Shown here: in pieces, positions 24,043 to 53,764 of the stretch
Layout: each line of letters opens with the position of its first letter
Position numbering within the stretch: the first letter of the stretch is position 1
Source of the DNA: Candidatus Woesearchaeota archaeon
Lineage (GTDB): Archaea; Nanobdellota; Nanobdellia; Woesearchaeales; CAZJJJ01
Length of the DNA stretch: 53,764 nucleotides
Assembly (NCBI GenBank): GCA_046538795.1
Contig: JBKHIF010000001.1
Coordinates: 1 to 53,764 of the forward strand
Direction: 5' to 3'
Position numbers and translations under genes: made by a program
The notes under the pieces: generated by a model
What the model saw: only the letters and a program-made list of their open reading frames with translations
What the model was told of the DNA's origin: nothing
The model's database searches: none

Positions 24043-26745
24043 TTATTCTAATGGAACAAAATTCGGATCAAGAGAAAACCTTACAAGATTTTCTGCAGAT
24101 TCATAATCTTCAGGATTGCTAAGGCTGTTTATTACCCGCCCTTCTCCTCTTTCCGCCAGTACACCAAAGCAATATTTTCCACCATCATTAACATATCTTC
24201 CAAGTATTATATTGATAGAAGTCTCTTCAACATTATCATAGCTTCTGTACCTCATCATATTTTTGCCTACACCTGAAACATCGCAGGCCCCCATCTCATC
24301 TCCTTCATATTCGTAATAAAGTATCGTATAGCTTTCTGGTTCATCCAACAAATCCAGCTCTTCTCCATTTTCATAGGTCTGAGGGGGCATCCATGATAAA
24401 GTATCTCCTGTAAATGCAACCATAGAAACAGGCCCGTATTCCAGATCGTCTTTTATGATGTTTGAATTAAGCTCTTCAATCGTTATCATCTCATCAAGAG
24501 AATTAGAAAGCTTATTTCCGTTGCTGTCAACACCAACAATACCTATGAGATATTCTGTATCTTTTTGCAAAGGAAGCGAATAGAGATATTTTCCTGAATT
24601 TTCAAAAGAGTATGCAAGATCATCTTCAAAAGTCATCCCTTCAAATCTTGTATTTTCTGGATTAACCGGATACATGCAAATCATGTTTTCATAATCAAAA
24701 TCACAGTCAAATGAATAAGGCATGGATAAAAGAGCATTTTCTTCTGCTGATGAAAATTGTATGGTGACTTTATTAACATAATCTGAATAATCCATCTCAG
24801 TTGTACTCATCTCATTAAGATATTTAAGATTACCATCATCCAGCGTATTTCTCATAAGTTCTTCGACCATATCAACATCCTGATAATATATATCATAATG
24901 ATCAATATCTTCTGCAGGACTCTTGTCAAACATTATTATTGCAGAATCAGAATCCTTAGGCTTGTCGTAGAACCGTACTCCGGTTATCTTAGGCGGAGGA
25001 TCATCCCTGAAATAAAGAGCAAACTTATATTTTACAGGTTCATAAGCTGCCATATATTCTTCTCTTCCAAAAAGATATTCTGTAGAGAATAGTTCCTGAG
25101 AACTTTCTACGCAGAACCTATGAAAAAGCCTTTGTGATGAGCATTGGAGATCAGTCCTATCAACAACAGGATTGTTTTCTGAATCAGCTGGAGCAAAGCA
25201 CAGCGTCCCTGAATCAATCTTATAAAGCTTGTTCAAGAGAGGTCTTCGTCCAAACTGAGGGATCGATATTTCTCCATTAGAATTTCTGAGTATTATCTCA
25301 TCTGCATCAGTTACATATTCATCTTCTGCTCCGAAAAATTCTGCAAACCCACCCCTATTCCTGAAATAACACAGGTTAAGATTTCCTGAAGGATTAACGA
25401 TTTCTTTAGAAAATATATTTCCATCTCGTTCATATCTTAGGCGGATCATATCATTTCCAAACTTAGTGCCTTTCTCAAGAATAATCTCAGAATCTTCAGG
25501 AAGATTGTCTAAAGAAAGCCTGCAAAAACAAGATTCGCTCTGTTTGTCTGAATCAAGGCACAGCATGAAATCCTCGTAAAGCGTTTCAAGATATTCCTCA
25601 TCACTATTACATGAACCATAGTTCCATCTGTAATTGTAATCTGTATGTGGTTCGTCATCTGGATGTGCAGAAGGTATTTCATAAGAGCCAAATTCTTCGA
25701 TCATATCATCTATGCATATGTCAAGGTCTGGTTTTCCTGAACATTCCTCAACAAGGGCTTCTGCATCTTGTATTATTTGTTCATATTCGCTCAAGTCATA
25801 ATCAAGATATACTGAAAATGAAGGATTTATCTTATAAAGGCCAAACTGGCTTACGATGTCAGAGTATGAAGGTGATTCTCCTAGAATCTTTTTCGCCCAG
25901 AAAGAATAGAAAAGCTCAGATTTCTCAAGTATGGATTTCATATCTTCATATATATCAACATTCATTATGCCTTCCTGATGGATAAGCTTTCTTGAATACT
26001 CATCAAGATGAGATTCCCCATTGTTTAAGATCCGTTCCATATTTATGCTCCTTCTTTTAGGAAGATCATAAAGAATCTTGTCAGAAGTATCTTTGTCAGA
26101 AAAAAAAGCCGTGGTTATAAGGTAAAGATTTCCGTGATACTCTGAATAAAGACTCATCACATATCTTGCAGCAACCTCTATATTCTTTTCAGGATCAAAC
26201 CGGTCATCATATTCATCTGATTCAGGTTCTGGAGAACATCCCGGCTCAAAAGAACAGTCACCCTCTCTTTTTCCATTGGGAGAACAGCAAGAAACAATCT
26301 TTCCGAAAACATCACCAAATCTTTCTCTTTGGGAAATCTCCTCACTTAAGGGTATTATTCCTGCCCGTCCTATGTGTGAGATATAATCTTCATTGCCTTC
26401 TGAAGAAACAGATATAAATGTCTTTAGAAGATATATACATTCAGAACGCTCGTCAGGAGACGTGACAGCATCTGAACAAGAAGATGCTATAAGAGGACTG
26501 TATCTTTCTATCTCCTGCCTGGTTTCAACGCTCAGACCAAGGTCTTCCATTGTAGGTATCTCACTTACAGCATGCCCTGTAAGAAGGCTTCTTGAAAATC
26601 TATCAAGGTTCATATTTGAAAAAAGAGAAAATTCTCCTGCAACCATGAAAAAAAGGACAAGAGTAACTAAAAGATTAAAAGCAAAAACAATCTTTCCTGC
26701 TTTATTCCTTTTTTCCTCTTCTTTATTTATCCTTTTTAATCTCAT
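24043..26745 (-). CDS. Pilin-signal-anchored 900-aa surface protein with an SLT (GH23)-like lytic transglycosylase segment
   Basis: N-terminus MRLKRINKEEEKRNKAG-KIVFAFNLLVTLVLFFMV. Residues ~95-215 read VSSEGNEDYISHIGRAGIIPL ... DPEKNIEVAARYVMSLYSEYHGNLYLITTAFF, which resembles the SLT pattern ES..(S)..GA.GLMQ ... N...G..YL..L...Y.G. The rest is unrecognised. Confidence 0.6.
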   Translation of the reverse strand: MRLKRINKEEEKRNKAGKIVFAFNLLVTLVLFFMVAGEFSLFSNMNLDRFSRSLLTGHAVSEIPTMEDLGLSVETRQEIERYSPLIASSCSDAVTSPDERSECIYLLKTFISVSSEGNEDYISHIGRAGIIPLSEEISQRERFGDVFGKIVSCCSPNGKREGDCSFEPGCSPEPESDEYDDRFDPEKNIEVAARYVMSLYSEYHGNLYLITTAFFSDKDTSDKILYDLPKRRSINMERILNNGESHLDEYSRKLIHQEGIMNVDIYEDMKSILEKSELFYSFWAKKILGESPSYSDIVSQFGLYKINPSFSVYLDYDLSEYEQIIQDAEALVEECSGKPDLDICIDDMIEEFGSYEIPSAHPDDEPHTDYNYRWNYGSCNSDEEYLETLYEDFMLCLDSDKQSESCFCRLSLDNLPEDSEIILEKGTKFGNDMIRLRYERDGNIFSKEIVNPSGNLNLCYFRNRGGFAEFFGAEDEYVTDADEIILRNSNGEISIPQFGRRPLLNKLYKIDSGTLCFAPADSENNPVVDRTDLQCSSQRLFHRFCVESSQELFSTEYLFGREEYMAAYEPVKYKFALYFRDDPPPKITGVRFYDKPKDSDSAIIMFDKSPAEDIDHYDIYYQDVDMVEELMRNTLDDGNLKYLNEMSTTEMDYSDYVNKVTIQFSSAEENALLSMPYSFDCDFDYENMICMYPVNPENTRFEGMTFEDDLAYSFENSGKYLYSLPLQKDTEYLIGIVGVDSNGNKLSNSLDEMITIEELNSNIIKDDLEYGPVSMVAFTGDTLSWMPPQTYENGEELDLLDEPESYTILYYEYEGDEMGACDVSGVGKNMMRYRSYDNVEETSINIILGRYVNDGGKYCFGVLAERGEGRVINSLSNPEDYESAENLVRFSLDPNFVPLE

Positions 26746-26757
26746 CTCAAAACATCT

Positions 26758-27819
26758 CTACTTTTTTAGCAACCTGAATATTTTTTGTATGTTTTCTCTC
26801 GTATATCCCAGCTGCATCATATAACCGGATATCTGGTCTTTTGTATATCCTTGTCTGAAAAGCCCATCAACGTATCTGATCACAGGATCATCAAATATCT
26901 TCCTGCTTTGTTTTGAAAACATATAGCTTCCGCTTACAAAAAGCAGAGCAACTGAAAGTATGAACAAAAATATAAGCGCAAAATCAGAATAATCAGGACC
27001 ATAATCAACCTCTTCATAATGATAGGAACGCTTATAAGCAATTTTTTCTGCATCCTCTTTATTTTCAGGATTATCCCTTTCTTCTGCTTCTTCAAGAAGG
27101 ATCGCATCATTATCATTTTCTTCAGACACACATCTGCCTATGCAGCATTTTGTTCCAAAATCATCTGAGTATATATTTTCACCATCACATTCCTGATATA
27201 TAGTGCAGGGTTTTCCTCCCAAAGAATTGCATGAAATAAGATCATCTTCTTCTAAAAGAGAAATGCAGTCTTCATCACACCCACAATCAATATCTTTTTC
27301 CTCGCAATCAGGATCACATATCCCATCATCCTCTAGATCGCAATAATTATCACTTTCACCAGAATCACAGTCATCGCATGATGCAAAACTTTCTGAAAGA
27401 CTGCACCCAGAATCACTGCATGGCTCGCATATTCCGTCATTATCGCACAAATTTATCAACCTATAATCGCCAGAAAAACCATAACCTGTCCTGAAGTAAT
27501 AGATATCTGAAGAACTCTCATCGACATGAAATACCACTCTTCCTGAATCATCAATCTTTTCCGAGGAAATTAGCTCTTTTGAATCATCATAAAGAAGAAC
27601 AGGAATCCCTGTATTCAAAGAGTCTCCTTTGTAAAACTCCCGACTATAAAATTCATTCCAGCTAAAAGCATAATATTTCTCAACGTTCATATCAGAATCA
27701 AATTCAATGAATATATCAAGAGCAGAAGAAAAAGGAATAACCAACATCACAAGAGCAAGAGCTATTAAATAAAAACGGTTTTTATTTCTTTTAAATATTA
27801 AAAAAATTTTGTCTCTCAT
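26758..27819 (-). CDS. Cys/Asp-rich secreted protein with a C-terminal TM anchor and a small basic cytoplasmic domain
   Basis: N-terminal signal/anchor (YLIALALVMLVIPFSSA), a Cys/Asp cluster (CDNDGICEPCSDSGC...CDLEDDGICDPDCEEKDIDCGCDEDC), then the TM FALIFLFILSVALLFVSGSYMF and a ~55-aa tail. Confidence 0.7.
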   Translation of the reverse strand: MRDKIFLIFKRNKNRFYLIALALVMLVIPFSSALDIFIEFDSDMNVEKYYAFSWNEFYSREFYKGDSLNTGIPVLLYDDSKELISSEKIDDSGRVVFHVDESSSDIYYFRTGYGFSGDYRLINLCDNDGICEPCSDSGCSLSESFASCDDCDSGESDNYCDLEDDGICDPDCEEKDIDCGCDEDCISLLEEDDLISCNSLGGKPCTIYQECDGENIYSDDFGTKCCIGRCVSEENDNDAILLEEAEERDNPENKEDAEKIAYKRSYHYEEVDYGPDYSDFALIFLFILSVALLFVSGSYMFSKQSRKIFDDPVIRYVDGLFRQGYTKDQISGYMMQLGYTRENIQKIFRLLKK

Positions 27820-27844: not shown

Positions 27845-29806
27845 CTAACCTATTTCAAGGATATTTTCAATAGCAGATTCATAATATTCTCTCGAGCTAA
27901 GATCTTCTATGTCTGAATTATCTATAGCATTCTTAGAAAAAATTATCTCTGGAGTGAATCGCCTGAATTCAGCATCATAATAAAATTCCAGAGGATCAAC
28001 TGCTTTTTTCACAGGACCCACAACCCAGTCATAGCACCTGCTTCCCATAATTTTCTCATTATCTGAACCATCCTTGTGAATTTCAAAATAAAATGCCCCT
28101 ATATCTGTTCCTGGAAAAACACCAGCCTCAGCAATCCTTCTTCCAGAAAGAATTATTTCTCCTGGTTCGACAAATATATTTTCTGCAAAATAATATCTTG
28201 ATACAAATCCATTATTATGATCTATCTCTATGATATTTGCCTGAGCATATTTTTCATCTATTTCAGCGCCCTCATATGTCAGTGATTCTTCTCCTGCACG
28301 AATGACCCTTCCTCCGGAAACTGCATATATATTATCCCCCACATCTGAACCAAGCATCAAACCTGGAAAAAATTCAAGATCATTTCCTGAATTCCCGCAC
28401 CTTGTCATGCCAAAAAGATTTATTACATTAAGATGAGATTGTTTCATTGAATCCAGAGGATAATATGATACCCAGTTATTATTTTCATTCTCAAGAAGAA
28501 CGCCTTTGTAAGGATCAAAGTCCGGATCAAACACTCTTCCTTTTATCTTAATGATAATTCCTCCTCTCTTCTGCCAGGCAGGTTCAAGAAGATCTCTTGA
28601 AAGAATTATATTATTTCCCACATCATTTGATGCCCCCTTTGTATAAGGATCATTTGCGATAACATAATTTTCTCCTGCATAAAGAATCACCAGATAATGT
28701 CCTCCTGTACAGTATGTCCTGTCAAGAACATCAATATCTTCTTCACACAAGCCAGCAAGCTCCTGATTTTGCAAAAGCAACACAGGACCCTGAGAAACTG
28801 CATATATCAAATCATCCCATGCCACATCATGGCTAACTTCTGCAACAAGATTTTTGCTTTCTGCAAATTTCTGCAATGTATCAGGATCATATCCATCTTT
28901 AGAGAAACAAGTGCCGTCCCCATTCTTGTTAAAAAAAAACCAGTTATCAGCAGGCACTCCGTAATATTCTAAAACCATGTTCATCGCTGTAGGTCCGCAG
29001 CCAGAAGAGCATAATGTTCCTACTTCATCTGTATCGCATGAAACCTCATATTCCTTTACATCAGAATCACCGCATTGATTAATAAAAGGCACAAGAGGCA
29101 CACCGTTCATCAAGGCATCTTCAGGACATGGGCCTCTGCAACATGAACCACTGCATTCATATCCATCCTGATCACGCACTTCATCTGCAATTAAATTACA
29201 GTAATTGCAAAGATTGCTTGTTTTTCCGCTCATGCCCGCTCCTTTGTTCCTTCCAATATCATATTCCATATCAGAATCAGTTGTTCCTATGACCTTGAGC
29301 TTATCTCCTGTATCTATGACAGAATAATCAAACCTTGCAGGCATATCCCTGTTGTATGCAATCGAATATTTGTAAATGATTGAATTAATCTGCGCCCTGA
29401 AATTATCGTCAAAATTATCTAATGGGTCGCAGGTCTTTTCCTGATCTTTTAAGATGTTGTAATCAAGATATTTTCCGCAAGGGGAATCATCTGCAAAGCC
29501 GCTTTTTTCTGCAAGGGAAAGAAAAGATTGCGCTGCTGAATATTTCACAGACTGATCAAGATAAAAAAGATCCTGTTCAGCCCTGTTTGAAGTAAGGATA
29601 AGATTAATCTGCTTTTCTCCTATATAAAGCGCAGGATCTATTGTTGATTTTTCTCTTTCGCTCCATTGCTTGAACATTGAGTAAGACATAAGTCCTGCAA
29701 TAAGCGAAAAAAGCATGAAAAGAGACAATGTCATGAGCATATTATCTCCTTTTTTATTTCCAAACATTCTCTTTTTTGTTTCAAACATCTTATACATTTT
29801 AATCAT
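27845..29806 (-). CDS. Pilin-signal protein with a papain-like (Peptidase_C39_2-type) domain and a degenerate M23/LytM-like domain
   Basis: N-terminus ..MFGNKKG-DNMLMTLSLFMLFSLIAGLM. C39-like motifs are CGPTAMNMVLEYYG, TGGHYLVILYAG and IANDP. An M23-like beta-core (IIEIDHNNGFVSRYYFAENIFVEPGEII) lacks the expected HxxxD and HxH metal ligands (FPGLML and FYFEIH instead). Confidence 0.65.
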   Translation of the reverse strand: MIKMYKMFETKKRMFGNKKGDNMLMTLSLFMLFSLIAGLMSYSMFKQWSEREKSTIDPALYIGEKQINLILTSNRAEQDLFYLDQSVKYSAAQSFLSLAEKSGFADDSPCGKYLDYNILKDQEKTCDPLDNFDDNFRAQINSIIYKYSIAYNRDMPARFDYSVIDTGDKLKVIGTTDSDMEYDIGRNKGAGMSGKTSNLCNYCNLIADEVRDQDGYECSGSCCRGPCPEDALMNGVPLVPFINQCGDSDVKEYEVSCDTDEVGTLCSSGCGPTAMNMVLEYYGVPADNWFFFNKNGDGTCFSKDGYDPDTLQKFAESKNLVAEVSHDVAWDDLIYAVSQGPVLLLQNQELAGLCEEDIDVLDRTYCTGGHYLVILYAGENYVIANDPYTKGASNDVGNNIILSRDLLEPAWQKRGGIIIKIKGRVFDPDFDPYKGVLLENENNNWVSYYPLDSMKQSHLNVINLFGMTRCGNSGNDLEFFPGLMLGSDVGDNIYAVSGGRVIRAGEESLTYEGAEIDEKYAQANIIEIDHNNGFVSRYYFAENIFVEPGEIILSGRRIAEAGVFPGTDIGAFYFEIHKDGSDNEKIMGSRCYDWVVGPVKKAVDPLEFYYDAEFRRFTPEIIFSKNAIDNSDIEDLSSREYYESAIENILEIG

Positions 29807-33124: not shown

Positions 33125-33143
33125 GAATATCACCATCTAAATT

Positions 33144-34934: not shown

Positions 34935-34939
34935 CTCAA

Positions 34940-46045: not shown

Positions 46046-49000
46046 TTATCTGTTTAGGAAGTACTGGCTTCTCAAAAGATAAATCTCTGGCACAGGAGGT
46101 TCAAAGTCGATATAATCAATAGCAAACTCTATATCTTCTGAAGCACCACCTATTCCTGATGCATCGCAGTCCACTCTGAATGTATAATTTTGCTGCATAT
46201 CAAGACCTGATGCAATATCTTCAGGAATATCTCCTGAATCAGAATCAAGACCTGAAAGAAGAGCAGAATGTCTGAAATAACCACCCATATCCTCTGATTC
46301 AAGTTCTGAATGTTCTGCAAATACGTTATTTATGAAATCAAAGATAAACGCAAAAATACCATCAGATTCCTTGATATATGTTGCTGTGCATTCTGCTTTT
46401 CTGTATGTGTTTACACTAAGCTCTGGATTAAGAGTCCTGATAGTTCCTGTTGGTTCAGGATCAAATATTATAACATCATGATCAAGATCAATCTCGATAT
46501 CGAATCTTCCTGACCTTGATTCCTGCATTGCTTTATCCTTGCATCTTATATAAACAGGAGTTGAAGCTCCTTCTTCCATGTGTATAGCTATCCTTGGATG
46601 AAGAAGATACATATCATGATCATCTGAAAAATATCTCATCTCATCATACGATGCATCATTATAATCCCACTTGCATTTTACAAATTCATCTGCATTGACA
46701 GTGATCATGGCAACAGGATGTTTTACGATAAGATAGCTTCCATCTTCCTCAAGATGACCTTCCACATCTATTGATCTTATCTCAGGATCACGTGAATCAA
46801 CCTTGATCTCTTCTGTAATTTTTGCTACATTTCTTGCCTTATCCCTGCAAATAACTCTTATTATAGCTGTTCCAGATGCATCTGTATATATGCTGTTTTC
46901 AATATCAAGCTTGTGCTCTTTCCTGAAGTAAGGATTGTCCCCATTATTGAACAATTCAGAGACAAGATTGCCATCAGAATCAAAGTATTCGGCAGAACAA
47001 TGAGCATCCTCATCTGTATCTATCCTTATAGGCTCGGTTGTATCTTCAACATCAAGAGGATGAAGAGTTATCTCAGGAGCAGCATCATCACGCACTATCT
47101 TTACATATCTTGGACTTGCTGAATCCACATAAAGATAATAATGGTTTTCTCCATAGTCAAGACCTGTTATTGTTCTTGTTCCTGAACCGCTTCCTATGTT
47201 AAGAGAAATTTCCTCTTGTACATCATATAACCTTACCCGCTGTGATTCTGAAGACGAAAATCTAAGTTCAACAAAAGAATCTTTTGTATAATATTCATCT
47301 GAACCCGATGGAACCTCTATTGCTCCATCAATCGTTGTTATCTCAGCATCAGGATTTCCAAAAGAAACCTCAAAAGGCAAGTTATACGTTGATGAAGGAT
47401 TTCCTGAATTATCAATTGCAATCACATTAAGAACATAGCTGCCTGAACTAAGACTTCCTAAGATAATCTTGTTCTGATCTAAGATGACGCCTTCAGAATC
47501 TACCATCACATCAGGATCTTCTTCTGATGAACTTACAGAATAGCTATATCCTTTAAGACCGCTTCCTTCTTCTTCAACACTAACATCGAATATCAACAGG
47601 TTATTTGGATTTCTTGAAATCGAATTGATAACAGGAGCAGTATTATCATAATAGAATTCTTGTGGATCTGCTGGCCGGGTGACGATTTTTGTTGTATCAT
47701 CTTCATCAAAACATCTCACCCAATAACCAAAGAGCCCTTCATCTCTATCTGATATTTCAATCCTGTGCGTAAGTCCTGTGGACAAGTCTTCATCATAATC
47801 TTCATAACTGTTTCCACGAACTCCTTTTCTGAAAAGAGCATATTCGCATCCATAATAATTATTAGTCTTTGCTTCCAGAGTAAAAGAATCTCCATTCACA
47901 TATCCGCTTGGACTTATATTTAGTATGTCAAGCCTGCTTTTTCCATTCACCCTGAATACAAGATTATCTGCATAAGCTTTGTTTCCTGCCCTGTCCTGAC
48001 AAGCTATGTCAATATAATAGTCTCCTGCAGGAGCAGGAATTCCCCTGAAATCAAAAGATCTTTCCTGATTCCTCTGGAAATCACTGTTTCCAAAGAAATC
48101 ATCCTCAAAAGGACAAACTGAATTAGGGCTTCTGCATTCAAATCTACATACAATATCATCTGGATCAAGGCTTGCATCAGATACAGTTATTCTTGGATTT
48201 ATCTCTGTCTCATCCCCTGAGAACACATCAAGGAAATATTCCTGTATGCCTGGCTGGGTTTCCACATTAAGTTCTCCGGAACTGCTTTTAAGAAGAAGCT
48301 TGGGAATCTTTGTATCTATTATGAAATCAAACGCTTCCATATATTCCTGGCCTGTTGCAACACCGACACATTTTACACTAAATCCATAATCACCATCTAT
48401 AAAGTATTCTTCAAGAAGATATTCATGGATTCGTCCATTCTCGCTTGCAATCATAGGCTCAAAATCACTGTCAACTGAATTGTTTCCATCATCATCCATG
48501 TCAAGACGAAAATAACATTCAGAATTATCTGTTGTCCTGAAAGTATGCAGCGAATTCCTGTTTTGGTTTGTATATCTTGAAGAGATCTGTTCAATATTCA
48601 CAGGTTCATCAGGATTTGGAACAATATTAAAATCAAAGCGCTCTCTTGCATTAAAACCAAATTTGTCTTTTGCTGAAACAACAAGGGAATAATTTCCGAC
48701 CCTGTAATCATAAAGACCTGAATCATCCATGTTTGGAACAATCTCATCTGAAAAATCAAGATCAGTTAAAGGATCTTCCGGATTGGCAAAAGAGTATATT
48801 ATGTGAGGGTCCATTGAGATGCATGGTCCTGAATTGCACTCTATCCTTATATCAACAGATTGAAGTTCATGAGACCAGTTCACATCAGAAATACGTACTG
48901 ACACTGAAAAAGGATCCTTATAATATATCTCTGAACCGGTTATGCTGCCAGTATCTTCTATAAGAGGAGGAGCATCATCATAATGTATGTTTATTATGGT

Positions 49001-52000
49001 TTCATTGATGTTTCCCACACCATCCTCTGCATATATTCTAAGGGCATATCTTGTATCGTCCATCCCCAATGTTTCAAGGTTCCAGTTTCTGGAAAAAGGA
49101 TAGATGCCTCCGCTCAGACTTTCAATAGGGAAATTAGTCCTCATCCTGTTTTGTTTATTCCATATTTCTGCATATAATGAAACAAGACTATTGCTTTCAA
49201 CAACATTTCCTGAAAGCTGAATAATATTAGATGTAGTAATAAAATCATATTCATTTTCATTTTCAGTTGAAATAAGAGAAGATTCTTCAGGAAGATCCAT
49301 ATTGATTACAGGAGCAGAAAGATCAGCCACTATATCTATGCATTTTACTTCTTCAAAATTTCCACCATTATCAATTCCATGGAAACAGACTTTTCTAACA
49401 GTATCTATCAAAAGCCCTTCAGCAGGAAGATCATAAGCATTAAGATTAGGATCGCAGGAATCATCGCCTATGTTTGTTACGCAGTATCTGACATCATCAT
49501 CTTCACATCCAAATACATAAGAAGGATTTCCCTCTATAGGAGAATCGTCACAACCAAAAGTAACTAAAGCCCCGCTGTTTATATTCATATGGCCGCTTTC
49601 TTCAAAAATTAGTTCTTCCTGACCCTCGACATTTACAATAGCTCTTGAAACAGGCGGTAAGAAATCTGTAGAAAATCTTGCTTCCTTTACCATCTCTTCG
49701 CCTGTAAGCTCATCTACACATCTTGCATAGAATTCTCCATCAAGATAAAGCTTGTTTCTTTGAAGCTCTGGCCAACCCGAAGGAAAATCAAGATAAAAGT
49801 GTTTATTAGCCTCAAAATGATCTTCTGAGTAATTCGGATCAAGCAGGAACTGGACATATCGTTCATTTGCCGGATCGCGCGCATCATAGAAACTGCATTC
49901 TGCATTTTCTTCTGTTGTAATGAAAAACTGCGGAGTAAGCGTACCTACAGTTCCTGGAGGAAGAGAAGGCATAGTGAAATTTATGCTCATGTATGCATCA
50001 ACAACAATATTGTGATCCCTATTTGAAGTATCATAATAATCATTGAAATTTCTAAATTGATCATAACAAAACATCTTCAAGTGATAAGGTCCATCAGGCA
50101 GTTTTGTAAATTGCAGCTGAAATTCTCTTTTTTCAGATTCATATTGATTTTCAGGCGCATATAGATAATCATCTCCCAGATTAGGAGGATCTGTTTCAGG
50201 TGTTCCGGGAGGCATATATCTTCCTTCATGTCTTAAGTAGAATTCACATGTGGAAGTCTCATTCATTATGATGTCCAGAGTAAGATCAGAAAGAATCTCA
50301 TCTTCTGTGCTACTTGCATTTTCATGAACTTCATAACTCAAAAATTCAATTCCTGGCGGAGTATCATCAAGATAAATTTCCATTGATTCAAGCTTTGCAA
50401 AATTCAGATGTTCATCAGCTGCGATATATCTTAGATAATAAAAACCCTCATGACGATATACTCTATTATTTCCATTATATCTTGCACCCGGCGTAAAAGT
50501 AACTTTCCTTAAATTTTCTCCTCCGATGATTATATCTGTTGAAAAAGAAGGTGAACAAGTATTTGTCCTATCTATGCAATACATAAATCCAGCCATATCT
50601 CCAAAATTATTTGCCAATGGCTCTGATGCATAAAATTCAAAATCAACAGATCTCCTGTTGCCATCTTCTCCATAAATATAAAAACCGGTTTCAATCCCTA
50701 CGCCCCTTAATGTTACTGGAACAGTATCGTTTTGACAATTGATTCCATTTGCTCCGGCTTCAGAACAATCAGGTTCATCATTATCATTACCATCTTTGAT
50801 GCAATATCCGCCATTCCTGTGAGTTTCATCTGAAATCCACTTGCAAAAATTCTTTGAGCAAGGATCCGCACTGTAGGTTGCAACATCACCCAAAGCAGTA
50901 TAGCTTCCTGACTTTATATCTGCAATTGAGGAAGACAATGAAAATTCCTGACCTCCTGTGCAAGAGTATTCTGTTGTATAATCTGAACACGCATCATTTT
51001 CCTTGCAGGAAATGCAGCTGTCTCCATCAGAATAGCAGTAACCTATGAATTCGCAAAGTTCTGGAGTACAGCCCATATTTGAATTAAAAGGCGAGTTTTC
51101 CTTTGAACAAAGATTGCAGTTGCTGTCATCTTCAGGATCTGCCCTTTCATATTCTACACAGAAACCTTCTCCAAAACTCGAAAACCCTAATCCTATTGCA
51201 GGTATTTTTGAAAAATCAAGAGTTCCTGACGTTGTCTCAGAATCACGACCGTCGCCTGCAATCCAAACACAAGGAGACCCGCCGCCTACCATGCAATTGT
51301 CTATTTCACATGCTCCTTTTGTAGTGTAATCAGAACATCTATCATATTGCATGCAAGAAACACATCTATCAACAACAATTCCTTTTTCCATTGTGCAATA
51401 ATTATAATACCTGTTTCCATCGACATTTGATGCCTCGCCTGTAAGGAGATTTCCATAACAGTCTTCAGAGCTATAATAAAGTCCAAAAGGATCTGCCTCA
51501 AGAGTATCTATGTCGCATGCGCTCTGTTGTCTGCAGAAAGTATTTCCAAATTCATTGGGTCCTGAACAGACAAATCTTGGACCATAATCAGAACAATCCC
51601 AAAATGCCCTTCCTTCAGAATTATCTGTTTTTCCATATTCTTTAAAATTATTTTCGTTGCATTGATATCTATATATTGGAACAGCTGATGAGCCCATGCC
51701 GAAAAATTCCTCTGAACTGCAAAATTCTTGATTGCCATTTGAGAAGCTTTTGTCTTTGCATATGGCATCGCCTGTCCTGAATGTGACATTCGGAAACATT
51801 TCATGATCAAACTCAGCATAGATAGAACCTATAGATGTAAGTCCCTGAGAAGGTTGAGGCCTTCTTCCGTTTGCATAAAGAGGAACAACAGTATAATCAT
51901 ATTCCTGATCCCATTCATCAGATTGAGGATCTACAAAAGAATAAGTATTTGCAGGCACAGAACCAATTTTCCTGTATTCATCATCTCCATTAAGATCTCT

Positions 52001-53638
52001 TCTGAAAATATCAAAAGAGATAAGCTCATCGCACATCATAGGCTTCCATGAGAGCATTAGTTCAGGCTTGCCCTGTTGAGCTGCCCTTGCGCTTAGAAGT
52101 TCAACAACTGCCATTTCTTCAAGGCCGGTATTTTCATCGACAGAATCAAGCACGCATTCTGAGATGACTGGCGGCATGTATATATCTCCAAGATCAATAT
52201 CAAATGTATGGTCATTGATCCTGAAAAAAATTTCTGAACCATAATTTCCTTCCAGAGGATTTTCAATTACAACATAATCTCCTGAATCAACATCATTATA
52301 GACAAAATCAACCTCATCAGAACCTACAAGTGTTTGTACGTTTGATCCTGCATAATTATCATAAGGGACTACAGGAACAGAACCATGTCCAGAACTCATC
52401 ACAAATATATAATAATCCAAAACCCCATAATCTCCTGAATTAGATATAGGGAATGCTCTTTCGAAAACACCATTTGAATCTGTATTATATGCTTTTGATC
52501 TCCCTGTCTCGCTGTCTTTTACAACGACTATAGCCCCTTGTATAGGCTCAAGGGTTATATTGTCATAGACAGTTAGCCTGATGTTCCTTGTCTCAAGAGG
52601 TGTACAAGGAAGGACACTAAAATAATCATTGTCAAGTCCTCCATCGCAACAGTATCCATCCTGATTTGTATATTTTATTTCGCTTCCGCACATGCAGTAC
52701 TCTTCACCGCTGTTTGATCTTAAGGTGCCGTCAGGATTGCAGTAGACAGGTTCATCACAAACTGAATCGCATCCCACCATATTCTGAAAACGCCTGCAAT
52801 CATTATCTTCATTGATAACATTTCCCGGACAAAAATCCTCTGCAATACAACAGTCAACAGCTTCGGTAAGACATGCTGTAGCAGTATCTGAACCGCTGCA
52901 ATATATGCCTGTTCCATCAGCACCGCACCTTGCACTATTTCCGATGATCCTTTCATCATTCTCATTCTGGCAGCCCAAAGCGCAGCAGACATAATTTCCA
53001 TCATTTTTTTGAAGTTCAAGCTCAAAAATCCCTGTATTTATTATTGCTTCAGAAGAATCATCAGTATCAGGTATAGTAAATGTTAAACTTACAGGAATCC
53101 TATCTGGAGCAGTTATGGTAGCTTCATATATACCCGAAGGAATTTCAGTTATCTCAAAAAAACCTTCGCTGTTTGTGGTTCCTTCAATTCTTGAATTATC
53201 ATTCTGGCCAGCAGGTATAACAACATCTGCTCCCTGGATTGCACTATTGGGAACCTCTTCTGTATAGACAGATCCTCTTATTGTACCTATGCCCAAAGAT
53301 GCTTCTGTTTCCTGTAAAAGGTTTATGGTTTGTTCTGTTGGTCCTGAAACTGAAACCGTAATGCTCTTATCCTGGTAGCCTGGTCTTGATACAGAAATTG
53401 TGTATGTTCCTGAACCTATATCTCCGTCAGAATCATCTCCTATGAAATAATAGCCTGATCCTGAAGATGAAGTCACAGTCTTTGAACCTATGCATTCACT
53501 ACATCCAGAAGGAGGGGTGACTGTTATCTGAGCATTTCCTAAAGGAGTTGCGCTTGATGAATCCCTTATGTATCCATAGAGTACAGATTTTTCTTCGCAG
53601 ATTGATTCGCACTCTGAAAAATCGTCTATCTGGCTCAT
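46046..53638 (-). CDS. Giant (at least 2530 aa) adhesin-like surface protein; N-terminus probably incomplete
   Basis: Three CarboxypepD_reg-like beta-sandwich segments (e.g. GYIRDSSSATPLGNAQITV...YTISVSRPGYQ). An FN3-like segment and Cys-rich regions. At least 8 Ig-like modules opening with D-x-x-[AP]-P-x-I (DDTPPGIEF, DLSAPVINM, DDAPPLIED, DNTAPVINS, DDAAPEITL, DSRDPEIRS ...). No signal peptide follows the annotated Met. Confidence 0.8.
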   Translation of the reverse strand: MSQIDDFSECESICEEKSVLYGYIRDSSSATPLGNAQITVTPPSGCSECIGSKTVTSSSGSGYYFIGDDSDGDIGSGTYTISVSRPGYQDKSITVSVSGPTEQTINLLQETEASLGIGTIRGSVYTEEVPNSAIQGADVVIPAGQNDNSRIEGTTNSEGFFEITEIPSGIYEATITAPDRIPVSLTFTIPDTDDSSEAIINTGIFELELQKNDGNYVCCALGCQNENDERIIGNSARCGADGTGIYCSGSDTATACLTEAVDCCIAEDFCPGNVINEDNDCRRFQNMVGCDSVCDEPVYCNPDGTLRSNSGEEYCMCGSEIKYTNQDGYCCDGGLDNDYFSVLPCTPLETRNIRLTVYDNITLEPIQGAIVVVKDSETGRSKAYNTDSNGVFERAFPISNSGDYGVLDYYIFVMSSGHGSVPVVPYDNYAGSNVQTLVGSDEVDFVYNDVDSGDYVVIENPLEGNYGSEIFFRINDHTFDIDLGDIYMPPVISECVLDSVDENTGLEEMAVVELLSARAAQQGKPELMLSWKPMMCDELISFDIFRRDLNGDDEYRKIGSVPANTYSFVDPQSDEWDQEYDYTVVPLYANGRRPQPSQGLTSIGSIYAEFDHEMFPNVTFRTGDAICKDKSFSNGNQEFCSSEEFFGMGSSAVPIYRYQCNENNFKEYGKTDNSEGRAFWDCSDYGPRFVCSGPNEFGNTFCRQQSACDIDTLEADPFGLYYSSEDCYGNLLTGEASNVDGNRYYNYCTMEKGIVVDRCVSCMQYDRCSDYTTKGACEIDNCMVGGGSPCVWIAGDGRDSETTSGTLDFSKIPAIGLGFSSFGEGFCVEYERADPEDDSNCNLCSKENSPFNSNMGCTPELCEFIGYCYSDGDSCISCKENDACSDYTTEYSCTGGQEFSLSSSIADIKSGSYTALGDVATYSADPCSKNFCKWISDETHRNGGYCIKDGNDNDEPDCSEAGANGINCQNDTVPVTLRGVGIETGFYIYGEDGNRRSVDFEFYASEPLANNFGDMAGFMYCIDRTNTCSPSFSTDIIIGGENLRKVTFTPGARYNGNNRVYRHEGFYYLRYIAADEHLNFAKLESMEIYLDDTPPGIEFLSYEVHENASSTEDEILSDLTLDIIMNETSTCEFYLRHEGRYMPPGTPETDPPNLGDDYLYAPENQYESEKREFQLQFTKLPDGPYHLKMFCYDQFRNFNDYYDTSNRDHNIVVDAYMSINFTMPSLPPGTVGTLTPQFFITTEENAECSFYDARDPANERYVQFLLDPNYSEDHFEANKHFYLDFPSGWPELQRNKLYLDGEFYARCVDELTGEEMVKEARFSTDFLPPVSRAIVNVEGQEELIFEESGHMNINSGALVTFGCDDSPIEGNPSYVFGCEDDDVRYCVTNIGDDSCDPNLNAYDLPAEGLLIDTVRKVCFHGIDNGGNFEEVKCIDIVADLSAPVINMDLPEESSLISTENENEYDFITTSNIIQLSGNVVESNSLVSLYAEIWNKQNRMRTNFPIESLSGGIYPFSRNWNLETLGMDDTRYALRIYAEDGVGNINETIINIHYDDAPPLIEDTGSITGSEIYYKDPFSVSVRISDVNWSHELQSVDIRIECNSGPCISMDPHIIYSFANPEDPLTDLDFSDEIVPNMDDSGLYDYRVGNYSLVVSAKDKFGFNARERFDFNIVPNPDEPVNIEQISSRYTNQNRNSLHTFRTTDNSECYFRLDMDDDGNNSVDSDFEPMIASENGRIHEYLLEEYFIDGDYGFSVKCVGVATGQEYMEAFDFIIDTKIPKLLLKSSSGELNVETQPGIQEYFLDVFSGDETEINPRITVSDASLDPDDIVCRFECRSPNSVCPFEDDFFGNSDFQRNQERSFDFRGIPAPAGDYYIDIACQDRAGNKAYADNLVFRVNGKSRLDILNISPSGYVNGDSFTLEAKTNNYYGCEYALFRKGVRGNSYEDYDEDLSTGLTHRIEISDRDEGLFGYWVRCFDEDDTTKIVTRPADPQEFYYDNTAPVINSISRNPNNLLIFDVSVEEEGSGLKGYSYSVSSSEEDPDVMVDSEGVILDQNKIILGSLSSGSYVLNVIAIDNSGNPSSTYNLPFEVSFGNPDAEITTIDGAIEVPSGSDEYYTKDSFVELRFSSSESQRVRLYDVQEEISLNIGSGSGTRTITGLDYGENHYYLYVDSASPRYVKIVRDDAAPEITLHPLDVEDTTEPIRIDTDEDAHCSAEYFDSDGNLVSELFNNGDNPYFRKEHKLDIENSIYTDASGTAIIRVICRDKARNVAKITEEIKVDSRDPEIRSIDVEGHLEEDGSYLIVKHPVAMITVNADEFVKCKWDYNDASYDEMRYFSDDHDMYLLHPRIAIHMEEGASTPVYIRCKDKAMQESRSGRFDIEIDLDHDVIIFDPEPTGTIRTLNPELSVNTYRKAECTATYIKESDGIFAFIFDFINNVFAEHSELESEDMGGYFRHSALLSGLDSDSGDIPEDIASGLDMQQNYTFRVDCDASGIGGASEDIEFAIDYIDFEPPVPEIYLLRSQYFLNR

Positions 53639-53686
53639 GAACGTATTTTGAGAATATTCATTGCAAGTTGCTTCTGAAGAAAGCTG

Positions 53687-53764
53687 TCAATCAATACCTG
53701 AACCCAAAGAAAATATGCAGCAGCCGAATCTGCATTCTGCTGTCTGGTTACAGTCAATATCAAA
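53687..53764 (-). CDS. Partial ORF running off the window (3' end only), in the same frame as 46046..53638
   Basis: Hand-translated: ...FDIDCNQTAECRFGCCIFSLGSGID-TGA. Then 16 sense codons (QLSSEATCNEYSQNTF) lead into the Met at 53638. Confidence 0.3.
   Translation of the reverse strand, partial: FDIDCNQTAECRFGCCIFSLGSGID

What the first reader, a model, noticed from the sequence alone, without database searches (positions are those of the whole stretch)
24043..53764. 30-kb co-directional surface-apparatus locus: two giant adhesin-like proteins, 17 pilin-signal proteins and murein-hydrolase-like enzymes in an archaeal genome
Seen in sequence:
- From 53764 down to 24043 every gene is on the minus strand, with junctions ranging from a 17-nt overlap to a ~120-nt gap.
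- Transcription order: a giant ORF of at least 2530 aa (CarboxypepD_reg-like plus Ig-like modules); a 2063-aa type-I membrane protein with 24 Cys-rich modules; 15 consecutive ORFs whose N-termini all read basic residues, then G/A, then 18-25 hydrophobic residues; a 653-aa pilin-signal protein with C39-like and degenerate LytM-like domains; a 353-aa Cys/Asp-rich membrane protein; and a 900-aa pilin-signal protein with an SLT-like segment.
- A TATA-like element at 24001-24010 suggests the next gene (RPA) is a separate transcription unit.

Established knowledge:
- Class III signals are processed by PibD/FlaK/EppA-type prepilin peptidases. They mark archaeal pilins, archaellins and the Sulfolobus bindosome substrate-binding proteins.
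- SLT and M23 domains act on peptidoglycan.

Inference:
- The locus encodes a pilus- or bindosome-like surface machine that displays adhesins and wall-degrading enzymes. It would plausibly serve attachment to, or penetration of, a host cell by an episymbiotic archaeon.
- No assembly ATPase (PilB/ArlI), platform protein (PilC/ArlJ) or prepilin peptidase is in the window. The assembly module is therefore either elsewhere or unconventional.
Basis: partly seen in the sequence, partly recalled or inferred. Interest (0 to 1): 0.9.

Follow-up and report, generated by a model that had tools for sequence, protein, structure and literature searches.

The report
Woesearchaeal pilin-like array with wall-hydrolase payload
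A tiny uncultured archaeon (Woesearchaeota) carries a ~37-kb gene cluster, conserved gene for gene in hundreds of related species, that encodes giant adhesin-like proteins, about 16 different pilin-like proteins and a final pilin-like protein fused to bacterial-cell-wall-targeting domains. It looks like a pilus-derived device for gripping and opening bacterial cells.

Summary
Window 24043-53764 is one co-directional block:
- a giant adhesin-like gene;
- a 2063-aa protein with 24 Cys-rich modules;
- 15 consecutive ORFs with an N-terminal [NS]-K-K-[G/A] plus hydrophobic helix;
- a 653-aa protein with the same N-terminus plus C39-like and degenerate LytM domains;
- a 353-aa membrane protein;
- a 900-aa SLT-like protein.

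The window is a whole contig of a Woesearchaeota MAG. A 99.9%-identical 87-kb contig extends the locus 7.4 kb upstream, to about 37 kb.

New here:
- The array is conserved one-to-one in two lineages at 25-60% identity, and in order across 80 species-level genomes; 239 encode the p02 marker.
- 91% of assigned ORFs keep the motif, and 57% of those have Gln at +1, as EppA-type prepilin signals do.
- The slot after the 15th pilin-like gene (p15) holds interchangeable peptidoglycan domains: VanY/M15, Amidase_2, or C39+dLytM.

Corrections:
- The SLT protein's signal is not conserved.
- Its catalytic Glu is Ser.
- The LytM is EnvC-like and inactive.
- The giant gene carries an in-frame TGA.

No ATPase, platform or peptidase lies within ±10 kb of p02 in any of the 80 genomes. 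I read it as a type-IV-filament-derived surface apparatus aimed at bacterial walls: a new variant of a known kind.

The parts
46046..53764 (-). Giant adhesin-like surface protein gene. The ORF from ATG 53638 gives 2530 aa. The upstream in-frame fragment 53690-53764 belongs to the same gene in sister assemblies, where it encodes 2630 aa.
   Evidence: for the ORF. Pfam finds CarboxypepD_reg, Big_13, Big_3_4 and Y_Y_Y. P0014 and P0016 are 2630 and 2611 aa, with N-terminus MIEKRGLFLTTGIFIFLLF. It is 33% identical to the L008 ortholog.
53687..53689 (-). In-frame TGA that interrupts the giant gene. The 99.9%-identical 87-kb contig reads TGC (Cys) here.
   Evidence: The mismatch is at window 53687.
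39801..45992 (-). 2063-aa type I membrane protein. It has a Sec signal, an Ig-like N-terminal region, 24 Cys-rich ~50-aa modules (ETDVDCGGxCxxC...DSDC), an HPGSPW-TM-GGGGY anchor and a K/S-rich cytoplasmic tail.
   Evidence: Orthologs have 3 and at least 6 modules with TSP3 repeats. The gene is present in 60 of 80 related loci.
39280..39804 (-). p01, a 174-aa pilin-like protein (NRKG|QPQSHVLMMVMTLF).
   Evidence: It is 56-57% identical to its orthologs and found in 65 of 80 loci.
38160..39260 (-). p02, a 366-aa pilin-like protein (RKKA|QITVQFNWIFILVAG). It served as the marker of the array.
   Evidence: AF2 gives pLDDT 90.8, with helix 15-63 followed by beta-sheet. There are 33 homologs, and 239 GTDB species genomes encode a relative. 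Foldseek finds no PDB match.
37625..38155 (-). p03, a 176-aa pilin-like protein (SKKA|QDIKMGETIMVLFIF).
   Evidence: The mature N-terminus QDIKMGETIM is identical in three lineages. Found in 74 of 80 loci.
37055..37606 (-). p04, a 183-aa pilin-like protein (SRKA|QAEVFGLLFIVMLIS).
   Evidence: Found in 67 of 80 loci.
36639..36944 (-). p05, a small 101-aa pilin-like protein with a 6-Cys head. It is a candidate major subunit.
   Evidence: It is a paralog of p06. Alignments A2 and A6. The family occurs in 1-5 copies per locus in relatives. A TATA-like box lies upstream.
36356..36682 (-). p06, a small pilin-like protein. The likely start is ATG 36634, giving 92 aa (DKKA|QGMSINIIVVAAVALLVM). The head follows C-x6-C-x5-C-x10-C-x6-CC.
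   Evidence: Weak beta-defensin-type hits.
36178..36291 (-). p07, a 37-aa mini pilin-like ORF (MNKKA|DIKFIAILIL...KNAMLP).
   Evidence: Orthologs in L008, L009 and L011 end in NAMLP, AMNPA or KTKLP. TTTATATA lies at -31.
35106..36194 (-). p08, a 362-aa pilin-like protein (NKKG|DMTLKKLVTIILIL) with an acidic double-disulfide repeat.
   Evidence: Found in 37 of 80 loci.
34940..35104 (-). p09, a 54-aa mini pilin-like ORF (SKKG|NFIMENLGKIILILF).
33144..34946 (-). p10, a 600-aa pilin-like protein (NKKG|VSYVLTPVIAAILVF). It is the least conserved member.
32855..33136 (-). p11, a 93-aa pilin-like protein (SKKG|FEMTMPIIVSAALLL) with a DxDxDG...DPC head.
   Evidence: Found in 21 of 80 loci.
32088..32888 (-). 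p12, a 266-aa pilin-like protein (SKKG|TILVLENLVVFIL).
30991..32001 (-). p13, a 336-aa pilin-like protein (QKRA|SALSGPRMVILTIASF, with EYATGEI conserved).
   Evidence: TTTATAAA lies at -30.
30453..31004 (-). p14, a 183-aa pilin-like protein (NKKG|TIAEDTMHIIFLF).
   Evidence: It is 49% identical to its orthologs. Found in 22 of 80 loci.
29842..30456 (-). p15, a 204-aa pilin-like protein (SKKA|GLAEIWIFVGVVV).
27845..29806 (-). Payload protein of 653 aa. It has a pilin-like N-terminus (NKKG|DNMLMTLSLF), an 'YIGEKQINL' N-module, a C39-like Cys peptidase domain (nt 28643-29092) and an EnvC-like degenerate LytM domain (nt 28064-28363).
   Evidence: Pfam. The best PDB matches are EnvC. SGCGPT, GGHY and NDP are conserved, and FPGLML and FYFEIH replace the Zn ligands. 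Other genomes hold VanY or Amidase_2 in the same slot.
26758..27819 (-). 353-aa Cys/Asp-rich membrane protein with an N-terminal signal, a C-terminal TM helix and a short cytoplasmic tail. It has no K-[G/A] site.
   Evidence: Orthologs are found only in the window clade.
24043..26745 (-). 900-aa protein with an N-terminal TM anchor, a helical SLT-like domain (about nt 26056-26448) that has Ser at the catalytic Glu position, a conserved 'YSIxPSF' core, and FnIII-like beta-sandwiches.
   Evidence: Pfam SLT. 162 homologs. AF2 pLDDT 86.2. Foldseek returns tandem FnIII. Catalytic column. Orthologs lack K-[G/A].
24001..24010 (-). TATA-like box TTATATAAAT about 26 nt upstream of the RPA start codon. 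It marks the downstream boundary of the locus.
   Evidence: RPA follows the array in relatives too.

Best explanation
The locus encodes the structural parts of a type-IV-filament-derived surface apparatus specific to Woesearchaeota (Nanoarchaeia). I name the 15 consecutive pilin-like ORFs p01-p15 in transcription order.

Shown:
- About 16-17 proteins begin with a short basic leader that ends in K/R-K/R-[G/A/S], often followed by Gln. A ~20-residue hydrophobic segment follows, which in p02 is modelled as a 49-residue N-terminal helix leading into a beta-sheet domain.
- Each of these proteins has its own ortholog, in fixed order, across many species.
- Large Sec-dependent adhesin-like proteins are encoded immediately upstream.
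- The last pilin-like gene is a modular protein whose C-terminal domain is exchangeable among peptidoglycan-active or peptidoglycan-binding domains.

Inferred:
- A prepilin peptidase of the EppA/PibD type, encoded elsewhere, cleaves after the G/A/S.
- A TFF (type IV filament) ATPase and platform, also encoded elsewhere, assemble the hydrophobic N-terminal helices into a filament or short pseudopilus.
- The small, multi-copy p05/p06 family is the bulk subunit. The highly conserved p01-p04 form a priming or tip complex. The remaining members are low-copy subunits.
- The structure carries the giant adhesins and the wall-directed module to the surface of a bacterial partner or prey. There the module binds murein and, in clades with intact VanY or amidase domains, cuts it.
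- In this window's clade the C39-like cysteine peptidase is the only plausibly active centre. The dLytM and SLT-like domains more likely serve as murein-binding modules.
For: Signal and pilin-like character:
- The motif is conserved in orthologs at 25-60% identity, after start-codon correction.
- Invariant residues make up 38% of the first 30 mature positions against 23% of the rest. For p02, p03, p05 and p06 the figures are 60-73% against 19-45%.
- Gln occupies +1 in 301 of 525 motif ORFs. This is the EppA determinant (PMC4390842).
- DPANN (the ultrasmall-archaea superphylum that includes Woesearchaeota) are reported to carry System 1, Epd-like TFF machineries (bioRxiv 10.64898/2026.04.22.720090).
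- The AF2 model of p02 shows helix 15-63 followed by a beta-sheet, at pLDDT 90.8.

Conservation:
- One-to-one synteny holds in L005/L009, L006/L008 and L011.
- The order is kept across 80 GTDB species, and 239 genomes encode p02.

Payload:
- The payload slot holds VanY/M15 in 8 genomes, Amidase_2 in 1 (100 bits) and C39_2+dLytM in the window clade. All sit behind the same N-terminus and 'IGExQ' module.
- The L011 VanY keeps SxHxxGxAxD and EWWHW.

Literature:
- Large SLT proteins in Pacearchaeota and Woesearchaeota have been proposed to bind or degrade bacterial walls (PMC8204110; PMC9723730).
- Pilins fused to functional modules are established in Streptococcus sanguinis (PMC8179133).
Against: - No assembly ATPase, platform protein or prepilin peptidase is linked to the array in the 87-kb contig or in any of 80 genomes. 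Their presence elsewhere in these genomes was not testable.
- No Pfam or NCBIfam pilin family matches any member.
- The strict FlaFind pattern fits only 3 of 16, because polar residues follow the putative cleavage site.
- The confident p02 model has no Foldseek match to any solved pilin. Profile searches of the small family give only insignificant pilin or archaellin hits.
- In this window the LytM and SLT domains lack catalytic residues.
- The SLT-like domain is membrane-proximal on an N-terminal anchor, an odd geometry for reaching another cell.
- Fifteen distinct conserved pilin-like subunits far exceed any characterised type IV filament.
Confidence: 0.55

Rival explanations
1. A bindosome-like or pseudopilus-like envelope complex rather than an extended pilus. 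The class III signals are processed, but the subunits form a short, cell-bound scaffold, or a type-II-secretion-like piston. This scaffold anchors or exports the adhesins and wall-active proteins through the archaeon's own envelope.
For: - Archaeal class III signals are used for non-filament surface proteins such as substrate-binding proteins (PMC3047682; bioRxiv 10.64898/2026.04.22.720090).
- Fifteen stoichiometrically distinct, one-to-one conserved subunits look more like a defined complex than a homopolymer.
- The two mini-subunits p07 and p09 would be little more than single TM helices.
- The enzyme-bearing member resembles a cargo.
Against: - The small p05/p06 family occurs in 1-5 copies with a very conserved N-terminal helix, as major pilins do.
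- No BasEF-like or any other linked ATPase or membrane component was found.
- None of the proteins contains a substrate-binding domain.
Confidence: 0.25
2. Ordinary uncleaved N-terminal signal anchors. The K-K-G/A is only a positive-inside feature, and the locus is a set of membrane-tethered envelope and scavenging proteins. They digest free peptidoglycan debris for nutrients, with no filament and no dedicated machine.
For: - The strict FlaFind pattern is met by only 3 of 16.
- An unrelated polytopic protein in the window, UPF0182, also starts MDPKKA followed by a TM helix.
- No pilin family hit was found.
- No linked assembly genes were found.
- The SLT protein and its orthologs clearly use a plain anchor.
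Against: - The positive-inside rule does not explain the small residue found at -1 in the window's 17 sites and its orthologs. The 80-genome screen itself required G/A/S at -1, so it cannot test this point.
- It also does not explain Gln at +1 in 57% of sites, or K/R at -3 in 81%. The screen did not impose either of these.
- Sec-type proteins of the same locus (Cys-rich, 1226-aa, 353-aa) lack the motif.
- The mature N-termini of p02, p03, p05 and p06 are far more conserved than the rest of those proteins.
Confidence: 0.12
3. The wall-active modules act on the archaeon's own envelope. They would open a murein-like or pseudomurein-like sacculus for assembly of the apparatus, as specialised lytic transglycosylases do for bacterial pili and secretion systems.
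For: - From my own knowledge and not tested here, bacterial type IV pilus and secretion loci often include a dedicated SLT enzyme.
- The SLT-like domain is membrane-proximal in the model.
Against: - No peptidoglycan or pseudomurein synthesis genes occur in the window or in the stretches of the 87-kb contig that were read.
- VanY and Amidase_2 domains are specific for D-Ala and MurNAc chemistry of bacterial murein (Pfam definitions).
- Published genome surveys treat these enzymes as directed at bacteria (PMC8204110; PMC9723730).
Confidence: 0.05
4. An assembly chimera or a mis-binned bacterial fragment.
For: The window ends inside the giant gene, which carries an in-frame stop.
Against: - The same order appears in an independent 87-kb contig with 12 mismatches in 17.7 kb.
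- It also appears in three divergent lineages and 80 species genomes, flanked by the archaeal PolC-DP2 and RPA, RadA, CDC48 and GatDE genes.
Confidence: 0.01

Closest known systems
Epd pili of Methanococcus maripaludis (archaeal TFF 'System 1', EppA-processed pilins)
   Same: - Leaders end in K-K-G/A with Gln at +1.
- Several different pilins and accessory genes sit in one co-directional cluster.
- Some pilin genes lie away from the machinery.
- System 1 is reported in DPANN.
   Different: - This cluster contains 15-17 pilin-like genes but no ATPase, no split platform genes and no peptidase.
- There is no sequence or Pfam similarity to Epd pilins.
- It has giant adhesins and a peptidoglycan-directed module.
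Modular type IV pilins (Streptococcus sanguinis PilB/PilC; PMC8179133, PMC9934059)
   Same: A pilin N-terminal module is fused to a functional C-terminal module that the filament displays. The payload proteins here have that architecture.
   Different: - Those pilins are bacterial, with G|F-type signals, and carry adhesion or lectin modules.
- Here the domain is archaeal and the modules are murein peptidase, amidase or binding domains.
- Incorporation into a filament has not been shown.
DPANN 'dark-matter islands' of diverse predicted pilins (Makarova, Wolf & Koonin 2019, PMC6393860)
   Same: Runs of unannotated small secreted proteins with pilin-type signals in DPANN genomes, interpreted as divergent pilins.
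   Different: - Those islands were recognised by adjacent FlaI/TadC genes, whereas this array never has them.
- Fixed 1:1 orthology, wide distribution in Woesearchaeota and the hydrolase slot are not described there.
Large murein-lytic-transglycosylase-domain proteins of Pacearchaeota and Woesearchaeota (Castelle 2021, PMC8204110, module 98/fam00969; Vigneron 2022, PMC9723730)
   Same: The 900-aa protein belongs to a 162-member family, part of which carries canonical SLT domains. Both papers propose a role in contact with bacteria.
   Different: - Neither paper mentions pilins or this gene order (0 occurrences of 'pili' or 'pilin').
- In the window clade the catalytic Glu is replaced.
Sulfolobus bindosome (class III-signal sugar-binding proteins plus BasABC/EF)
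   Same: Non-pilin functional proteins carry class III signals and depend on a TFF-like system.
   Different: There are no substrate-binding domains, no Bas-like ATPase or membrane pair, different lineages and different cargo.
Type IV pili of Saccharibacteria (CPR) used for episymbiosis (PMC9894109, PMC11623550)
   Same: Ultrasmall, host-dependent cells use pilin-based filaments to find and bind a bacterial host.
   Different: That system is bacterial with complete linked machinery. It has no enzyme-bearing pilins and is experimentally demonstrated.

Membership tests
Archaeal type IV pilin-like proteins (class III signal peptide proteins) | A short basic leader ending in [K/R]-[G/A], directly followed by a ~20-residue hydrophobic segment | tested here: met
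   16 window ORFs and the upstream 1157-aa protein carry it. It is conserved in orthologs and in 525 of 579 ORFs from 80 genomes. The strict FlaFind regex fits only 3 of 16, because 2-9 partly polar residues precede the hydrophobic core.
Archaeal type IV pilin-like proteins (class III signal peptide proteins) | Cleavage by an A24-family prepilin peptidase (PibD/FlaK/EppA) | not testable with these tools
   No peptidase gene lies in the window, in the read parts of the 87-kb contig or in the 80 loci. The rest of the genomes could not be read. Gln at +1 (57%) fits EppA specificity.
Archaeal type IV pilin-like proteins (class III signal peptide proteins) | Pilin fold: an N-terminal alpha-helix of ~50 residues packed on a beta-sheet | tested here: inconclusive
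   The p02 model has helix 15-63 followed by a beta-sheet, at pLDDT 90.8. Foldseek finds no significant match to any solved structure. The other members were not modelled.
Archaeal type IV pilin-like proteins (class III signal peptide proteins) | Match to curated pilin or archaellin families (Pfam, NCBIfam) | tested here: not met
   No pilin family was hit, even at E up to 10 on the N-termini.
Type IV filament (TFF) system | ATPase, platform protein and peptidase encoded with the pilins, or at least in the genome | tested here: not met
   Linkage was tested. None is found in record 10121-83866 of the 87-kb contig. None is found within ±10 kb of p02 in 80 genomes: no VirB11-type Walker A ORF and no recurrent polytopic protein. 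Genome-wide presence could not be tested.
Peptidase M23 (LytM) metallo-endopeptidases | Zn ligands HxxxD and HxH | tested here: not met
   The Pfam hit is 39.6 bits, but FPGLML and FYFEIH replace the ligand motifs in all three orthologs. The best PDB relatives are the EnvC activator domains. This is a degenerate LytM.
SLT / GH23 lytic transglycosylases | Catalytic Glu of the E-S motif and the G-L-M-Q segment | tested here: not met
   The partial Pfam hit is 23.5 bits against a 21.3 cut-off. The catalytic column holds Ser114 in the window, Ala or Ser in the orthologs and Thr in the subfamily. More distant family members keep ES...GLMQ.
Peptidase_C39_2 (papain-like Cys peptidases, PF13529) | Family match with conserved Cys and His | tested here: met
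   The hit is 38.9 bits against a 24 cut-off. SGCGPT, GGHY and NDP are invariant in three orthologs. Substrate and activity were not tested.
VanY / Peptidase_M15 (LAS metallopeptidases), for the payload of related loci | Family match above cut-off with the H-x6-D and E-x2-H motifs | tested here: met
   L011 scores 42.8 and 38.7 bits and keeps SSHQTGGAVDV and EWWHWEY. Seven further genomes match. This domain is not present in the window itself.
Sulfolobus-type bindosome | Substrate-binding proteins with class III signals plus the BasEF ATPase and membrane pair | tested here: not met
   No substrate-binding domain and no linked ATPase or membrane pair were found.

The most novel reading that the evidence does not exclude
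Woesearchaeota possess a lineage-wide, pilus-derived 'grapple-and-open' organelle.
- It would be built from about 15 dedicated pilin-like subunits.
- Its terminal subunit would be an exchangeable murein-cutting or murein-binding enzyme.
- Its bulk subunit would carry a beta-defensin-like head.
- It would be assembled by an unlinked or unconventional machine.

This would be the first archaeal filament whose subunits are weapons or tools against bacterial cell walls. It would also give a direct molecular basis for cross-domain archaeon-on-bacterium episymbiosis or predation.
Probability: 0.35. Interest if true: 0.85.

Novelty: new variant of a known kind. Interest (0 to 1): 0.7.

Why it matters
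Woesearchaeota are among the most abundant uncultured archaea, yet their partners and the way they make contact are unknown. This cluster gives a concrete, widely conserved candidate for the contact apparatus.

- It ties the previously noted 'large SLT proteins' to a defined set of pilin-like genes.
- Its interchangeable murein-specific domains (VanY, amidase, C39/dLytM, SLT) point to bacteria, not archaea, as the targets.
- It yields testable reagents: the p02 marker, the p05/p06 candidate major subunit, and payload domains for sacculus assays.
- It raises a mechanistic puzzle. Fifteen one-to-one conserved pilin-like subunits never sit next to an ATPase, platform or peptidase.

Tried and rejected
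Look-ups and homolog searches:
- Exact look-ups of three window proteins in the contig index found nothing. Ids from cluster look-ups worked instead.
- A single search with 17 proteins concatenated returned nothing, not even the 900-aa protein that is in the collection. That result is uninformative and cost one search.
- The 653-aa protein alone found only itself.

Family and structure searches:
- Pfam and NCBIfam on all pilin-like ORFs and on isolated N-termini gave only noise.
- The strict FlaFind regex fits 3 of 16, so I used a relaxed motif with strand and orthology controls.
- PDB profile searches of the small pilin family gave only insignificant hits to TM helices, geopilin, archaellin or PilA.
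- Foldseek of p02 found no match.
- Foldseek of the whole 900-aa model was dominated by FnIII repeats, so the SLT-like domain could not be compared on its own.
- A PDB sequence search with the 900-aa protein found nothing.

Other:
- The sigma-70 promoter and terminator scan is not meaningful for an archaeon and showed no enrichment.
- All-against-all BLAST found paralogy only among p05, p06 and p11, so the array is not a recent tandem expansion.
- I rejected the chimera explanation and the single-operon claim.

Full report
**1. Source and setting**

The window is archaeal and low in G+C, at 32-42%. Outside the locus it encodes RadA, RPA, CDC48, GatD/GatE, TruD and adenylate kinase.

Exact-sequence look-ups show that it is an entire 53,764-bp contig of a 'Candidatus Woesearchaeota archaeon' MAG, with locus tags ACLFUO_. 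An 87,024-bp contig from another assembly, CAZMYC010000001.1, differs at 12 of 17,719 aligned bases. I used it to look beyond the window's end.

**2. The observation**

Every ORF from 24043 to the window end is on the minus strand. I name the 15 consecutive pilin-like ORFs p01-p15 in transcription order.

- A giant ORF with CarboxypepD_reg and Ig-like hits.
- A 2063-aa protein with a Sec-type signal, 24 'DCGG' modules, 198 Cys, a transmembrane (TM) helix and a long K/S-rich tail.
- 15 consecutive ORFs, two of them only 37 and 54 aa. Aligned on the last K/R-G/A before the hydrophobic core, their N-termini read [N/S]-K-K-[G/A].
- A 653-aa protein with the same N-terminus plus Peptidase_C39_2 and Peptidase_M23.
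- A 353-aa Cys/Asp-rich membrane protein.
- A 900-aa protein with a partial SLT hit.

The motif is present in 17 of 20 locus ORFs against 1 of 20 other window ORFs (p = 4e-7). TTATATAAAT sits about 26 nt before the RPA start codon.

Corrections:
- The giant gene is broken by the contig end and by TGA at 53687-53689. The sister contig reads TGC there and encodes 2630 aa with an N-terminal signal.
- The locus continues upstream with a 1157-aa protein that has a textbook class III start (MGKRG|QVTVFIITGVAILF) and a 1226-aa Sec-signal protein. PolC-DP2 follows further upstream. The complete locus is about 37 kb.

**3. Conservation**

An exhaustive HMMER search with the 900-aa protein found 162 relatives, including two full-length orthologs at 41% identity. 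Their contigs have the same gene order as the window, gene for gene. One is a Logan assembly and one a JGI metagenome.

The shared order runs as follows:
- giant protein, then Cys-rich protein;
- p01 to p15;
- the C39/M23 protein, the ~350-aa membrane protein and the SLT-like protein;
- then RPA, DUF362 and RadA.

Locus proteins are 25-62% identical to these orthologs. Flanking housekeeping proteins are 58-84% identical.

After correcting start codons, the K/R-K/R-[G/A] site is present in all three lineages for p01-p15 and for the C39/M23 protein. The mature N-termini are often the best conserved part. For example, QDIKMGETIM of p03 is identical in all three. Invariant positions reach 60-73% in the first 30 mature residues of p02, p03, p05 and p06, against 19-45% elsewhere.

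The SLT-like protein is the exception. Its orthologs start MRKEIFF or MKKELFF with no small residue, so it is most likely a plain signal-anchor protein.

**4. Breadth**

A profile of p02 found 33 full-length homologs, all unannotated and all from Nanoarchaeota or Woesearchaeota.

A scan of one genome per GTDB species found 239 genomes that encode a relative. I fetched 80 loci. Several of their records are titled 'uncultured Methanosarcinales', but their content is clearly Woesearchaeal.

HMMs built from the window clade recover a consistent order across these genomes:
- Cys-rich protein, then p01, p02, p03, p04;
- p05/p06, in 1-5 copies;
- p08, p11, p12, p13, p14, p15;
- the payload gene, then the SLT-core gene.

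Of 579 assigned pilin-like ORFs, 525 carry [K/R]-[G/A/S] followed by a hydrophobic stretch. The residue at -1 is Ala in 221, Gly in 163 and Ser in 141. My screen required those residues, along with K/R at -2. K/R at -3 (81%) and Gln at +1 (301 of 525) were not imposed by the screen.

A +1 Gln is reported as essential for the pilin-specific peptidase EppA of Methanococcus (PMC4390842). The recent TFF (type IV filament) census places Epd-like 'System 1' in DPANN, the superphylum that includes Woesearchaeota.

Motif-bearing ORFs are twelve-fold denser on the array strand than on the opposite strand of the same loci.

**5. The payload slot**

In a more distant relative, L011 (p02 32% identical), the array is again complete. 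It includes orthologs of the upstream 1226-aa and 1157-aa proteins and the mini-ORF p07.

There, the gene after p15 encodes a 366-aa protein with three parts:
- a K-K-S plus TM N-terminus;
- the same 'xIGExQ' N-module as the window's 653-aa protein;
- an apparently intact VanY/Peptidase_M15 domain (SSHQTGGAVDV, EWWHWEY).

Across the 80 loci the slot holds:
- VanY/M15 in eight genomes;
- Amidase_2 in one, at 100 bits;
- a weak 3D-domain hit in one;
- unassigned domains in a few.

All of these are murein-specific enzyme families. The same carrier holding interchangeable wall-directed domains is the strongest argument that the apparatus deals with peptidoglycan.

**6. The enzymes of this window**

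*The M23 domain.* It aligns best with EnvC, the catalytically dead amidase activator. FPGLML replaces HxxxD and FYFEIH replaces HxH, in all three orthologs.

*The SLT-like segment.* It is homologous to canonical SLT domains present in distant family members (ES...GLMQ). In the window protein, however, the catalytic column holds Ser114. The two orthologs have Ala or Ser, and the subfamily has Thr.

*The C39-like domain.* It keeps SGCGPT, GGHY and NDP.

*The 900-aa model.* At pLDDT 86 it shows a TM helix, a helical domain at residues 73-350, and then beta-sandwiches that Foldseek matches to tandem FnIII domains.

In this clade, then, murein recognition is more likely than murein glycan cleavage, with the Cys peptidase as the only candidate active site.

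**7. Are they pilins?**

For:
- The signal.
- The conserved hydrophobic N-termini.
- A small multi-copy family, p05/p06, with the consensus KKxQGLSxNxIIIAAIALxVLVVLxxIFTGR followed by a 6-Cys head.
- The p02 model, with a 49-residue N-terminal helix followed by a sheet.

Against:
- No pilin family hit at any threshold.
- No structural match for p02.
- Only 3 of 16 pass the strict FlaFind pattern.
- No ATPase, platform or peptidase near the array in any of 80 genomes. There is no VirB11-type Walker A ORF, the few P-loop proteins are unrelated, and the eight polytopic ORFs are non-recurrent.

Unlinked pilin genes are normal in Methanococcus and Haloferax (PMC4858521). Absence of linkage therefore lowers confidence but does not exclude the model.

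**8. Mechanism**

I consider the following the most likely account, at about 0.55. Section 7 gives what is shown; every step below is inferred.
- An EppA/PibD-type peptidase encoded elsewhere removes the leaders.
- A TFF ATPase and platform, also encoded elsewhere, assemble the subunits.
- p05/p06 form the shaft. p01-p04 form a priming or tip complex. The others are minor subunits.
- The last subunit is a modular pilin that presents a murein-binding or murein-cutting domain.
- The giant Ig-like and Cys-rich proteins act as associated adhesins.
- The target is the wall of a bacterial partner.

The rivals are a short bindosome-like or secretion-type pseudopilus (0.25), uncleaved anchors on scavenging enzymes (0.12), remodelling of the archaeon's own wall (0.05), and an artefact (0.01, refuted by synteny).

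**9. Relation to the literature**

- Large SLT-domain proteins of Pacearchaeota and Woesearchaeota, and a 51-family co-occurring module, were reported without any mention of pilins (PMC8204110).
- 'Vampiristic' Woesearchaeota with GH23 genes were proposed in PMC9723730.
- Islands of divergent pilins in DPANN were noted next to FlaI/TadC (PMC6393860).
- Class III signals on non-pilin proteins, and adhesins in TFF loci, are reviewed in the 2026 census.
- Modular pilins are established in Streptococcus.

In the searchable library I found no description of this fixed 15-gene array, of its spread across Woesearchaeota, or of pilin-type signals on murein hydrolases. I therefore file it as a new variant of a known kind. 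It is not a proven member of any characterised TFF system.

**10. Transcription**

Most junctions are overlaps or gaps under 35 nt. The three largest internal gaps, upstream of p05, p07 and p13, each carry TTTATATA or TTTATAAA. In two of them the box lies about 30 nt before the start codon. Several transcription units are likely, one of them starting at the candidate major subunits.

Noticed in passing
window 53687-53689 (minus strand): An in-frame TGA interrupts the giant adhesin gene 17 codons upstream of the annotated ATG. The 99.9%-identical 87-kb contig reads TGC (Cys) here. The first 61 aa of the gene sit on another contig of the same MAG (P0015). This is a strain-level nonsense mutation or a consensus error near the contig end.
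   Followed up: yes
window 36356-36944; alignment A6 (84 sequences from L013-L081): The head of the small pilin-like family follows the Cys spacing C-x6-C-x5-C-x10-C-x6-CC, close to the beta-defensin pattern.
- Members give weak hits to Inhibitor_I68 (best E 2.6e-6), AtDEF-like (9 members), Defensin_beta and Defensin_big.
- The profile also hits PDB 2k2z at E 0.14.

The similarity is suggestive but not established.
   Followed up: partly
window 39801-45992; L008:4626-6890; L009:2-2836: The Cys-rich 'DCGG' module number differs widely between orthologs: 24 in the window, 3 in one relative and at least 6 in another, where the modules are interleaved with TSP3-type Ca-binding repeats. The HPGSPW-TM-GGGGY anchor and the K/S-rich cytoplasmic tail are conserved.
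   Followed up: partly
window 26550-26600 (protein residues ~50-65 of the 900-aa protein); P0024-P0095: Most members of the SLT-core family have a conserved 'ITG[F/A/Y][A/V]' motif 8-15 residues after the N-terminal TM helix. The window protein reads LLTGHAV there. This may be a processing site for an unknown protease.
   Followed up: no
L002:786-2150 and L002:2204-2575 (upstream of the locus in the 87-kb contig): Two adjacent ORFs of 454 and 123 aa share a 98%-identical 122-aa N-terminus with His-rich HGTHS/HGSHS repeats. This is either a local duplication or an assembly artefact. Neither has a Pfam match.
   Followed up: no
window 36292-36355, 32002-32087, 36945-37054: TATA-like boxes (TTTATATA or TTTATAAA) lie about 30 nt upstream of p07 and p13 and about 48 nt upstream of p05. 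This suggests that the 30-kb block is several transcription units.
   Followed up: partly
L012:7557-8494 and 12475-16342: In one Nanoarchaeota genome (GCA_022564635.1) the array is interrupted by an oppositely oriented nucleotidyltransferase (toxin-antitoxin-like) pair and by DDE transposases. The array can therefore decay.
   Followed up: no
L014, L018, L021-L024 and others (record titles): Many GTDB records that carry this Woesearchaeal array are titled 'uncultured Methanosarcinales archaeon' (one even 'Dehalococcoidales bacterium'). These appear to be placeholder or wrong taxonomy labels in the submissions.
   Followed up: no
window 136-2886 (+): A 916-aa UPF0182 family membrane protein (Pfam E 2.4e-277) starts MDPKKA followed by a TM helix. 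It is a chance look-alike of the class III motif and served as a caution for motif-only calls.
   Followed up: partly
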